From the NCBI RefSeq assembly GCF_024223415.1, contig NZ_CP100500.1: a DNA stretch of 64,000 nucleotides; one strand, written 5' to 3'. Below are positions 6,601-9,600 of this stretch, piece after piece; position 1 is the stretch's first letter; every line of letters begins with the position of its first letter. The DNA comes from Escherichia coli (lineage in GTDB: Bacteria > Pseudomonadota > Gammaproteobacteria > Enterobacterales > Enterobacteriaceae). The position numbers are program-made.

Positions 6601-9600
6601 CGATAATCTTTGTCGAGTCCGGGCAGCATCACTTTTAAACACAGGACATCTTTGATGATAAGGCAGGTTATCCAGCGAATAAGCAACCCTGAAGCAAGCA
6701 TCGAGAGCTTGCAGGAACGGCGTTTTTGGTTGCAGTGTGAGCGTGCTTACACCTGGCAGCCGATCTATCAAACATGCGGGCGGTTAATGGCCGTGGAGCT
6801 ATTAACGGTGGTCACGCATCCCTTGAACCCTTCGCAGCGCCTGCCGCCGGATCGCTATTTTACTGAAATCACCGTCAGCCATCGGATGGAGGTTGTGAAA
6901 GAGCAGATTGATTTGCTGGCGCAAAAAGCCGACTTCTTTATAGAGCACGGCCTGCTGGCATCGGTCAATATTGATGGCCCTACGCTCATCGCCCTGCGTC
7001 AGCAACCAAAAATCCTGCGCCAGATTGAGCGTCTTCCCTGGCTGCGTTTCGAACTGGTGGAGATATCCGTCTGCCGAAAGATTCAACCTTTGCCTCGATG
7101 TGTGAATTTGGCCCGCTGTGGCTGGATGATTTTGGTACCGGGATGGCAAATTTCTCTGCACTAAGTGAAGTGCGTTATGACTACATCAAAATCGCGCGAG
7201 AACTGTTTGTGATGCTGCGTCAGTCGCCGGAAGGCCGCACACTCTTTTCTCAGCTTTTACATCTAATGAATCGCTATTGTCGCGGGGTGATTGTCGAGGG
7301 CGTAGAAACACCGGAAGAGTGGCGTGATGTTCAGAACTCGCCCGCATTCGCCGCACAAGGCTGGTTTCTTTCACGCCCGGCACCGATAGAAACGCTGAAT
7401 ACGGCGGTTCTGGCGCTATAAGCTGCCTCATTTTCCGCCTGGCTGGACTATCTTTAGGACTGGCACAGGAAGAATATGAGGAAGCGAACGATGAGCAAGG
7501 CAGGCAAAATAACCGCTGCGATTTCAGGGGCTTTCTTGTTGTTGATTGTCGTGGCGATCATTTTGATTGCAACTTTTGACTGGAATCGACTCAAACCGAC
7601 CATCAACCAGAAAGTCTCTGCGGAGTTGAATCGTCCGTTCGCTATCCGTGGCGATCTGGGCGTGGTGTGGGAGCGGCAAAAGCAAGAAACTGGCTGGCGC
7701 AGCTGGGTGCCGTGGCCCCATGTACACGCGGAAGACATCATTCTTGGCAATCCACCGGATATTCCCGAAGTCACGATGGTGCATTTGCCACGCGTAGAGG
7801 CAACGCTGGCACCGTTGGCGCTGCTGACCAAAACGGTCTGGCTACCGTGGATCAAACTGGAAAAGCCCGACGCACGCCTGATTCGCCTCTCTGAAAAGAA
7901 CAATAACTGGACGTTTAATCTTGCCAACGATGACAACAAAAACGCGAATGCAAAGCCGTCGGCGTGGTCGTTTCGGCTGGATAATATTCTGTTCGATCAA
8001 GGGCGGATCGCCATTGATGACAAAGTAAGCAAAGCGGATCTGGAAATTTTTGTCGATCCGTTAGGCAAGCCACTGCCGTTCAGCGAAGTTACTGGATCGA
8101 AAGGTAAAGCGGATAAAGAAAAGGTGGGCGATTACGTTTTTGGCCTGAAGGCGCAGGGACGTTATAACGGTGAACCGCTCACTGGTACGGGAAAAATAGG
8201 CGGTATGCTGGCGCTGCGTGGCGAAGGGACGCCGTTTCCGGTACAGGCTGATTTCCGTTCAGGTAATACCCGTGTTGCTTTTGATGGCGTCGTGAATGAC
8301 CCAATGAAGATGGGCGGTGTCGATTTACGGCTTAAATTTTCTGGCGATTCGCTGGGTGATCTCTATGAACTGACGGGCGTTCTGCTGCCCGATACCCCGC
8401 CGTTTGAAACGGATGGTCGGCTGGTAGCGAAAATCGACACTGAAAAATCGTCGGTCTTTGATTATCGCGGCTTTAATGGGCGCATTGGCGATAGCGATAT
8501 CCACGGTTCTCTGGTCTACACCACCGGCAAACCACGACCAAAACTGGAAGGTGATGTCGAGTCGCGGCAATTGCGGCTGGCGGACCTGGGACCGTTGATT
8601 GGCGTTGATTCCGGGAAAGGGGCAGAAAAGTCGAAACGGTCTGAACAGAAGAAGGGCGAAAAAAGCGTTCAGCCTGCGGGCAAAGTGCTGCCTTATGACC
8701 GCTTCGAAACCGATAAATGGGACGTTATGGATGCCGATGTTCGCTTCAAAGGGCGGCGCATTGAGCATGGCAGTAGCCTGCCGATTATCGATCTTTCTAC
8801 TCATATCATCCTCAAAAATGCTGACCTGCGCCTGCAACCGCTGAAATTTGGCATGGCGGGCGGCAGCATTGCGGCGAATATTCATCTGGAAGGCGATAAA
8901 AAGCCGATGCAGGGGCGGGCAGATATTCAGGCTCGTCGACTGAAACTGAAAGAACTGATGCCCGATGTGGAACTGATGCAGAAGACGCTGGGGGAAATGA
9001 ACGGTGACGCGGAACTACGCGGTAGCGGTAACTCGGTGGCGGCACTTTTAGGCAACAGTAACGGCAACCTGAAACTGTTGATGAATGACGGGCTGGTGAG
9101 CCGCAACCTGATGGAGATTGTTGGGCTGAATGTCGGCAACTACATTGTCGGTGCGATATTTGGTGATGATGAGGTGCGGGTGAACTGCGCGGCGGCGAAT
9201 CTGGATATTGCCAACGGCGTGGCGCGCCCGCAGATCTTTGCTTTCGATACTGAGAACGCGTTGATTAACGTTACCGGCACGGCAAGTTTTGCTTCGGAAC
9301 AGCTGGATTTGACTATTGATCCGGAGAGTAAAGGAATTCGGATTATCACACTGCGTTCGCCGCTGTATGTGCGTGGGACGTTTAAAAATCCTCAGGCTGG
9401 GGTGAAAGCCGGGCCGTTGATTGCCCGTGGTGCTGTTGCTGCGGCACTGGCAACGCTGGTAACACCGGCGGCGGCGTTACTGGCGCTGATCTCACCTTCC
9501 GAAGGGGAGGCTAATCAGTGTCGGACGATTTTGTCGCAGATGAAGAAGTGATGATAATTGCCGGATGTCTGACATCCGGCAATTAAACAGATTTAGATTG

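What the first reader, a model, noticed from the sequence alone, without database searches (positions are those of the whole stretch)
7040..7110. pdeH (yhjH) is split by a -1 frameshift: the main motility-controlling c-di-GMP phosphodiesterase appears inactivated
The N-terminal two thirds of the EAL domain (to ...LRFELVE) and the C-terminal third (IRLPKDSTFASMCEFGPLWLDDFGTGMANF...) lie in overlapping different frames. The upstream frame stops at 7164, before the DDFGTG catalytic region can be translated in frame. The junction is at 7062/7063, where the window reads gagatatccg and I recall intact genes reading gagcatatccg, so a single C appears to be missing. A truncated protein lacking the DDFGTG region should be inactive. 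Loss of PdeH raises c-di-GMP, engages the YcgR flagellar brake and favours curli and cellulose over motility. The upstream sigma-28 promoter is still near-perfect, suggesting the lesion is recent or is a sequencing or assembly error.
Basis: partly seen in the sequence, partly recalled or inferred. Interest (0 to 1): 0.55.

Follow-up and report, generated by a model that had tools for sequence, protein, structure and literature searches.

The report
Recent one-base deletion inactivates pdeH
In this E. coli strain the well-known gene pdeH, whose enzyme keeps the signal molecule c-di-GMP low so the cell can swim, is broken by the loss of a single C; the lesion is real and very recent, but it is an ordinary strain-specific loss-of-function mutation in a fully characterised gene.

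Summary
Window 6655..7421 is pdeH (yhjH) lacking one C between 7062 and 7063 (gene position 409, His137 CAT). Putting the C back gives an intact 255-codon pdeH identical to that of close relatives. The upstream frame reads 136 native and 33 foreign codons and stops at 7162-7164. Codons 138-255 follow in another frame.

The product keeps 51% of the EAL domain. It lacks DDFGTG, K179, the EGVE glutamates and Q235, and Pfam no longer recognises it.

The lesion is not an artefact. The site is not a homopolymer, and the same junction occurs in GenBank draft GCA_900482235.1 and in re-assemblies of SRA run SRR19977205 and two further Logan contigs. These are identical over 13 kb.

It is also very recent. 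Assemblies sharing the lineage marker YhjE V290M are identical to the window over 11.3 kb and 6.7 kb except for this C, and they have intact pdeH. None of 5,412 complete RefSeq E. coli genomes has the junction. No slippery site or conserved two-frame arrangement supports recoding.

At least a dozen other independent pdeH disruptions exist at low frequency in public data. Raised c-di-GMP, the YcgR brake and more curli/cellulose are inferred from K-12 work and were not tested here. Kind: already known. Interest: low.

The parts
6580..6606 (+). Sigma-28 (FliA)-type promoter-like site upstream of pdeH: TAAAGTTC-N11-GCCGATAA
   Evidence: single match in the 64 kb window with 1 mismatch to TAAAGTTT-N11-GCCGATAA; 0.07 expected by chance. 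It is identical in the relatives. Function was not tested here.
6655..7062 (+). pdeH 5' part: native codons 1-136 (MIRQ...LRFELVE). Retains E48 (ELL motif), N105 and E133/E136
   Evidence: 100% identical to intact pdeH of SCU-316, NCTC10444 and KV7.
7062..7063 (+). Lesion: one C missing between these two bases (gene position 409, first base of His137 CAT). GAG CAT ATC becomes GAG ATA TCC. Not a homopolymer.
   Evidence: Absent from 5,412 complete RefSeq E. coli genomes. Present in GCA_900482235.1 and Logan SRR19977205.
7063..7164 (+). Out-of-frame tail of the truncated product: 33 foreign codons (ISVCRK...QISLH) and stop TAA at 7162-7164
   Evidence: The 169-aa product has no Pfam match even at E<=10.
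7065..7421 (+). pdeH 3' part: native codons 138-255 plus stop, now in a different frame. Encodes DDFGTG (D158/D159), K179, EGVE (E215/E218) and Q235. Internal ATGs at 7098 and 7143 lack a Shine-Dalgarno sequence.
   Evidence: Gene callers report a 92-aa orphan from 7143 carrying the only remaining EAL Pfam signal.

Best explanation
Window 6655..7421 is the E. coli gene pdeH (yhjH), the stand-alone EAL-domain c-di-GMP phosphodiesterase expressed from a FliA-type promoter. It has been converted to a pseudogene by a genuine, very recent deletion of one C (gene position 409).

Shown here:
- The deletion is the only difference from intact alleles.
- Translation from the normal start gives 136 native residues plus 33 foreign ones and then stops.
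- Every catalytic element in the second half of the EAL domain is out of frame: the DDFGTG aspartates, K179, the EGVE glutamates and Q235.
- The lesion is reproduced in independent sequence data.
- It is absent from the closest relatives.

Inferred from established EAL enzymology: the truncated protein cannot hydrolyse c-di-GMP.

Inferred from K-12, Salmonella and Shigella genetics:
- Without PdeH the c-di-GMP pool rises during flagellar gene expression.
- YcgR then binds the motor and slows swimming.
- The balance shifts towards CsgD-dependent curli and cellulose.

Whether the mutation arose in nature or during laboratory storage of a repeatedly sequenced strain cannot be told.
For: - Identity and context: 5,422 of 5,426 complete E. 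coli genomes match the region, annotated pdeH, between kdgK and yhjG.
- Single-base gap. Restoring C gives the exact 255-codon gene of SCU-316.
- Domain loss: intact protein has EAL at 26-242, E=5.5e-32. The 169-aa product has no Pfam hit.
- Not assembly noise: against three relatives the window has only 3 private indels in 64 kb, and the pdeH one is not in a homopolymer.
- Reproducible: the exact 169-aa product is on 4 contigs. These are GenBank UDHK01000008.1 and Logan SRR19977205_77 plus 2 similar places. There are 0 mismatches over 12,997 nt between the two fetched contigs, and the Logan contig is identical to window 1..9651.
- Recent: L031 (GCA_044160685.1, plus 4 similar places) and L034 (GCA_018050105.1) share the private YhjE V290M SNP. 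They are identical to the window over 11,323 and 6,652 nt except for this C, and they encode 255-aa PdeH.
- Function of PdeH: YhjH is described as the key phosphodiesterase for motility acting through YcgR, and as conserved in all 61 compared genomes (PMC5635171). A pdeH deletion gave the highest c-di-GMP among the S. flexneri phosphodiesterase mutants tested (PMC13320778).
Against: - No raw reads were inspected. Reproducibility rests on assemblies from separate submissions, which could still be the same strain.
- No phenotype is available.
- Flagellar genes, ycgR, the diguanylate cyclases and csgD lie outside the window. If the strain is already non-motile or lacks YcgR, the lesion would have little effect on swimming.
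- No solved PdeH structure was found by sequence; the nearest is the EAL-like STM1697, 5hxg. The residue roles are therefore carried over from other EAL enzymes from my own knowledge.
Confidence: 0.9

Rival explanations
1. The missing C is a sequencing or assembly error in one draft genome, and the real gene is intact.
For: The deletion is private to one assembly lineage. Zero of 5,412 complete genomes have it, and otherwise identical relatives are intact. That pattern is also what an error would produce. Some other pdeH 'frameshifts' in public data sit in noisy long-read assemblies whose neighbouring genes are also fragmented (L014, L018).
Against: The site (GAG|C|ATA) is not a homopolymer. 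The window shows no homopolymer noise relative to three relatives, unlike SCU-316. The identical junction appears in Logan's independent re-assembly of an SRA run from a different submission route (SRR19977205), plus two further Logan contigs. The fetched contigs have 0 mismatches over 13 kb.
Confidence: 0.04
2. The two-frame arrangement is functional. Either programmed ribosomal frameshifting or transcriptional slippage restores full-length PdeH, or the two halves are made separately and reassemble into an active enzyme.
For: The two frames overlap by 133 nt (7029..7161), so a -1 shift in that stretch would in principle restore the reading frame. An ATG at 7098 (M149) could in principle start a C-terminal fragment that contains DDFGTG.
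Against: There is no X_XXY_YYZ slippery heptamer in the overlap and no run of 5 or more bases (only TTTT at 7130). Neither internal ATG has a Shine-Dalgarno sequence. The arrangement is not conserved: the nearest relatives and all complete genomes have one frame. Other strains carry different deletions scattered over positions 382-487, which is the pattern of random lesions and not of a recoding site. A rescued protein would also lack His137.
Confidence: 0.02
3. The deletion is real but arose during laboratory storage or passage of a strain that has been sequenced several times. It would then not reflect selection in the host or environment.
For: All four contigs with the allele collapse to the same neighbourhood, and the two fetched are identical over 13 kb. 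This fits one strain sequenced repeatedly under different accessions. The nearest wild relatives differ only by this base. Across the 64 kb window, 6 of the 7 private coding SNPs are non-synonymous, including two in gadX and one in hdeD, which is compatible with relaxed or laboratory selection.
Against: No metadata or publication could be found for the accessions. Similar independent pdeH lesions occur in metagenome assemblies and surveillance isolates, so natural occurrence is plausible.
Confidence: 0.3

Closest known systems
E. coli K-12 pdeH (yhjH) null mutants, the engineered deletions or insertions used to define the PdeH-YcgR flagellar brake pathway
   Same: Same gene, same chromosomal position (kdgK-pdeH-yhjG) and same FliA-type promoter. 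The expected result is also the same: no phosphodiesterase activity because the catalytic half of the EAL domain is missing (pathway as summarised in PMC5635171).
   Different: This is a spontaneous single-base deletion in a non-K-12, chu-positive strain. A 169-aa fragment may still be made. The phenotype is untested, and the state of ycgR, the flagellar genes and csgD in this strain is unknown.
Other naturally occurring pdeH frameshift or nonsense alleles in public E. coli data
   Same: These are single-base deletions at gene positions 382, 429, 448, 454, 477, 481, 485 and 487, further ones after QIE and after LRQQPK, a multi-base deletion, and one apparent nonsense allele. Most end at the same out-of-frame stop and give a 169-aa product plus a 92-aa orphan.
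   Different: Each is at a different site and in a different background, and the window's position-409 allele is not shared with any of them. Some lie in homopolymers or in noisy long-read assemblies and may be errors. The window's allele is outside a homopolymer and is reproduced independently.
Pseudogenisation of c-di-GMP turnover genes in host-restricted enterobacteria, such as the Shigella phosphodiesterase pseudogenes
   Same: Frameshift or nonsense inactivation of EAL-domain genes rewires c-di-GMP signalling. S. flexneri is described as having 6 phosphodiesterase genes annotated as pseudogenes and 5 others lost (PMC13320778).
   Different: In S. flexneri pdeH itself is intact and active. 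The window shows no IS elements or large insertions relative to three related genomes and no general genome decay, apart from a lineage-level chuA deletion. This is an isolated tip mutation and not part of a degradative programme.

Membership tests
pdeH/yhjH ortholog (E. coli core EAL-only c-di-GMP phosphodiesterase) | Orthologous chromosomal position between kdgK and yhjG, and near-identity to annotated pdeH | tested here: met
   99.9% identity to annotated pdeH with the same neighbours. 767 of 768 bases are identical to SCU-316.
pdeH/yhjH ortholog (E. coli core EAL-only c-di-GMP phosphodiesterase) | FliA (sigma-28) class 3 promoter upstream | tested here: met
   Consensus match at 6580-6606 with 1 mismatch; 0.07 expected by chance. 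This is sequence evidence only and transcription was not measured.
Active EAL-domain phosphodiesterase (Pfam PF00563) | A complete EAL domain in one reading frame | tested here: not met
   The intact relative has EAL at 26-242. The window's product from the native start stops after 136 native residues and has no Pfam match. The remaining EAL signal is on a separate 92-aa orphan ORF.
Active EAL-domain phosphodiesterase (Pfam PF00563) | Full set of catalytic and metal-binding residues: EAL/ELL Glu, Asn, ExxE, DD of DDFGTG, Lys, EGVE Glu and Gln | tested here: not met
   maps E48, N105 and E133/E136 upstream of the break, and D158/D159, K179, E215/E218 and Q235 downstream and out of frame. The roles of these residues are taken from published EAL enzymology (my own knowledge), not tested here.
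Programmed frameshift / recoded gene | Slippery sequence in the frame overlap | tested here: not met
   no X_XXY_YYZ heptamer in 7029..7161, and the longest run is TTTT.
Programmed frameshift / recoded gene | Two-frame arrangement conserved among relatives | tested here: not met
   Zero of 5,412 complete genomes have the junction. Relatives with 0 SNPs have a single 255-codon frame.
Sequencing/assembly artefact | Lesion not reproducible in independent data | tested here: not met
   The same junction is in GenBank UDHK01000008.1 and Logan SRR19977205_77, plus 2 similar Logan places. Raw reads themselves could not be inspected.

The most novel reading that the evidence does not exclude
pdeH, described as conserved in all 61 E. 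coli genomes of an earlier comparison, may be a recurrent target of independent loss-of-function mutations in natural populations. On this reading, transient pdeH-null clones would be repeatedly selected for high c-di-GMP, reduced swimming and more matrix in some niche, such as host colonisation or long-term storage. They would not be merely neutral or deleterious accidents.
Probability: 0.2. Interest if true: 0.45.

Novelty: already known. Interest (0 to 1): 0.2.

Why it matters
For this strain, the lesion predicts a specific and easily tested phenotype: poor spreading in soft agar that is rescued by intact pdeH or by deleting ycgR, together with stronger Congo-red binding. It also flags that the GenBank entry SRA07814.1 ('diguanylate phosphodiesterase') is a truncated, almost certainly inactive product.

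More generally, it is a clean natural example of a tip-of-lineage null allele in a gene regarded as part of the conserved c-di-GMP core. Low-frequency, independent pdeH lesions are also scattered through public data. It does not reveal any new gene, mechanism or system.

Tried and rejected
- **Shigella origin.** I considered it because no complete E. coli genome matched at 100%. I rejected it because the window has no large insertions relative to three E. coli genomes and is about 99.9% identical to them. S. flexneri pdeH is also reported intact.
- **Noisy assembly.** Rejected because most indels between the window and SCU-316 are private to SCU-316 homopolymers, not to the window.
- **Recoding or a split enzyme.** Rejected.
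- **Shared lineage pseudogene.** Rejected, because marker-sharing relatives are intact.
- **Reading Povolotsky & Hengge 2016.** The paper is not held, by DOI or by PMC id, so I used the statement about it in PMC5635171.
- **Literature search for the accessions.** GCA_900482235, UDHK01, SRR19977205 and SRR8689735 gave nothing, so the strain's identity and history remain unknown.
- **PMC10459773.** It has no mention of PdeH or YhjH.
- **Solved PdeH structure.** Only the EAL-like STM1697 (5hxg) turned up at E=2e-11.
- **Second allele in complete genomes.** The commonest other allele (deletion at position 382) is also absent from complete RefSeq genomes.
- **Frequency of pdeH disruption.** I did not attempt to normalise it against control genes, because the tools do not return pseudogene counts in bulk.

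Full report
**Observation.** The region was read and translated directly.
- From ATG 6655 the frame reads MIRQVIQR...LRFELVE. It then continues with 33 residues unrelated to any EAL protein (ISVCRKIQPLPRCVNLARCGWMILVPGWQISLH) and stops at TAA 7162-7164.
- A second frame, with codons starting at 7065, reads IRLPKDSTFASMCEFGPLWLDDFGTGMANF...AVLAL and stops at 7419-7421.
- A megablast of 6560-7480 against all complete RefSeq E. coli genomes found the locus in 5,422 of 5,426 genomes, annotated as pdeH (cyclic-guanylate-specific phosphodiesterase). The best hits span 922 record bases for 921 query bases.
- Alignment with strains SCU-316 and NCTC10444 shows one gap and no substitution. The references read GGAGCATATCC where the window reads GGAGATATCC.
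- The missing base is gene position 409, the first base of His137. Re-inserting it gives the exact 768-nt gene of SCU-316.
- One correction: the break falls at 136/255 residues and leaves 111 of the 217 Pfam EAL-domain residues (51%). That is about half, not two thirds.

**What is lost.**
- Pfam places the EAL domain at residues 26-242 of the intact protein (E=5.5e-32). It finds nothing at all in the 169-aa product.
- Motif mapping puts E48 (ELL variant of EAL), N105 and E133/E136 upstream of the break.
- D158/D159 (DDFGTG), K179, E215/E218 (EGVE) and Q235 are downstream and out of frame.
- From established EAL enzymology (my own knowledge of work on RocR, TBD1265, BlrP1 and YahA), these downstream residues include metal ligands, the catalytic lysine and the general-base glutamate. 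The truncated product should therefore be inactive.
- No PdeH structure was found by sequence. The nearest solved chain is the EAL-like STM1697, 5hxg.

**Is it real?** Three lines of evidence say yes.
1. *The window is not a noisy assembly.* In a four-way alignment over all 64 kb with SCU-316, NCTC10444 and KV7, the window has about 10 private SNPs and only three private indels. The many homopolymer indels belong to SCU-316. The pdeH deletion is not in a homopolymer.
2. *The truncated product is on record on four contigs.* The 169-aa sequence is on GenBank UDHK01000008.1 (assembly GCA_900482235.1, protein SRA07814.1), of which the fetched stretches match the window exactly. It is also on three contigs from Logan re-assemblies of SRA runs. 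With a wider flank, one of these was shown: SRR19977205_77, with two similar places.
3. *The independent contig agrees completely.* The Logan contig is identical to the GenBank contig over 12,997 nt and to window 1..9651, junction included. An ENA-route WGS accession and an SRR run are different submissions assembled by different software.

I put an artefact at about 4%.

**How old is it?**
- The window-private SNP at 10188 changes YhjE V290M, only 2.3 kb from pdeH. I used that exact protein as a lineage marker.
- Two assemblies carrying it are L031 (GCA_044160685.1, plus four similar places) and L034 (GCA_018050105.1). They are identical to the window over 11,323 and 6,652 nt except for one gap, which is the pdeH C. 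Both encode a 255-aa PdeH.
- Only the window's own contig shows the 169+92 split.
- An 80-nt query across the junction has no perfect match in 5,412 complete genomes.
- In contrast, the window's other disruptive private lesion, a 46-bp deletion in chuA, is on 10 contigs. It therefore looks older and wider.
- The pdeH deletion is thus the newest event at the tip of this lineage. The unchanged promoter and ribosome-binding region fit that, although they are identical in all relatives and carry little independent information.

**Rival mechanisms.**
- *Recoding.* A -1 ribosomal shift within the 133-nt overlap of the two frames (7029..7161) could in principle restore the frame. However, there is no slippery heptamer, the longest run is TTTT, and the internal ATGs at 7098 and 7143 lack Shine-Dalgarno sequences.
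- *Conservation.* The two-frame arrangement is not conserved in any relative.
- *Pattern of lesions.* Other strains carry lesions scattered across positions 382-487 and beyond. That is what random inactivating mutations look like.
- *Origin.* Whether the mutation arose in nature or in laboratory stocks is open. The carriers may be one strain sequenced repeatedly, and no metadata or paper could be found.

**Consequences (inferred, not tested here).**
- The literature held here describes YhjH/PdeH as the key phosphodiesterase removing motility-dedicated c-di-GMP, with YcgR as the c-di-GMP-binding brake. It is also described as conserved in all 61 genomes compared by Povolotsky and Hengge (PMC5635171).
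- In S. flexneri a pdeH deletion gave the highest c-di-GMP of the six phosphodiesterase mutants (PMC13320778).
- The expected phenotype is therefore raised c-di-GMP, slowed swimming if flagella and YcgR are intact, and a shift towards curli and cellulose.
- Within reach of the data, PdeK/HmsP (224..2212) and BcsC are intact. The flagellar genes, ycgR, the cyclases and csgD are outside the window.

**Wider context.**
- The 90%-identity cluster of the truncated product has 64 members. Of the 15 members listed, 14 are 169 aa, and they derive from other single-base deletions: after LRQQPK in an A5 run, after QIE, and after ERLP in a CCC run.
- The CCC-run allele (position 382) occurs in at least eight samples. 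It is in no complete RefSeq genome.
- The orphan 92-aa C-terminal ORF is called as a separate gene in all ten places inspected, and pdeH is broken in every one of them. It is indexed in 263 blocks of the collection.
- Those ten places carry nine different lesions: deletions at 429, 448, 454, 477, 481, 485 (twice) and 487, a multi-base deletion, and one allele with no indel (apparent nonsense).
- Some of these sit in long-read assemblies whose neighbouring genes are also fragmented. They may be errors.
- Neither deletion allele tested against the complete RefSeq genomes was found in any of them, and the gene itself is present in nearly all. These lesions therefore look rare and short-lived, consistent with purifying selection on pdeH. 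I could not normalise the rate against other genes, so recurrent positive selection is not excluded.

**Verdict.** The finding is correct and the lesion is real and recent. It is, however, an ordinary strain- or clone-specific null mutation in one of the best-understood c-di-GMP genes. Nothing about the gene, the mutation type or the expected phenotype is new.

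Noticed in passing
window 38229-38251 (chuA, ORF 36515..38296 +): The haem receptor gene chuA carries a 46-bp deletion between two copies of an 11-bp direct repeat (CCGATCGCTCA). This leaves 578 of 660 native residues plus a 15-residue foreign tail. 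SCU-316, NCTC10444 and KV7 are intact, but the exact truncated product is on 10 contigs (e.g. SRR8689735, ERR4398712). It is therefore a real lineage-level lesion, older and wider than the pdeH one.
   Followed up: partly
window SNPs at 10188, 20629, 20675, 28628, 50524, 60251 (non-synonymous), 31809 (synonymous), 21059, 27666, 44271 (intergenic): Of the 7 window-private coding SNPs relative to three close relatives, 6 are non-synonymous: YhjE V290M, GadX G206S and V221E, HdeD L68V, PrlC A292S and a DUF4049 protein V32F. Three of these six fall in the acid-fitness island. This may indicate relaxed or unusual selection in this lineage.
   Followed up: partly
window 41216-41222 (T7 run; minus-strand hypothetical gene 41195..42310): The length of this homopolymer differs among relatives: window n, NCTC10444 and KV7 n+1 (annotated as frameshifted), SCU-316 n+3. 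It lies about 20 nt from the 3' end of the gene, so only the last few residues change. It could be either real length variation or assembly noise.
   Followed up: partly
L010-L017 and L018-L027 (pdeH loci from other samples): At least a dozen independent pdeH disruptions exist in public assemblies and metagenomes, in both homopolymer and non-homopolymer sites. In one background (the position-382 allele, and L022) the neighbouring AsmA-family gene yhjG is also split into 293 and 326 aa.
   Followed up: partly
L003/L004 (SCU-316, NZ_CP054371.1), equivalent to window 27800-28900, 40700-41220 and 61350-61430: The complete genome SCU-316 has clusters of homopolymer indels and dinucleotide differences not seen in the window, NCTC10444 or KV7. 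It also has annotated frameshifts in hdeD, slp and a DUF4049 gene. These are probably assembly errors in that reference and not biology.
   Followed up: no
L037-L039 (yhjE alone on ~1.77 kb Logan contigs), equivalent to window 9631-11397: In several SRA re-assemblies yhjE sits alone on a short contig of about 1.77 kb, shared by up to 9 samples. This implies repeat or variant-induced assembly breaks on both sides of yhjE. It explains why the read-derived contigs carrying the pdeH deletion end just after yhjG.
   Followed up: no
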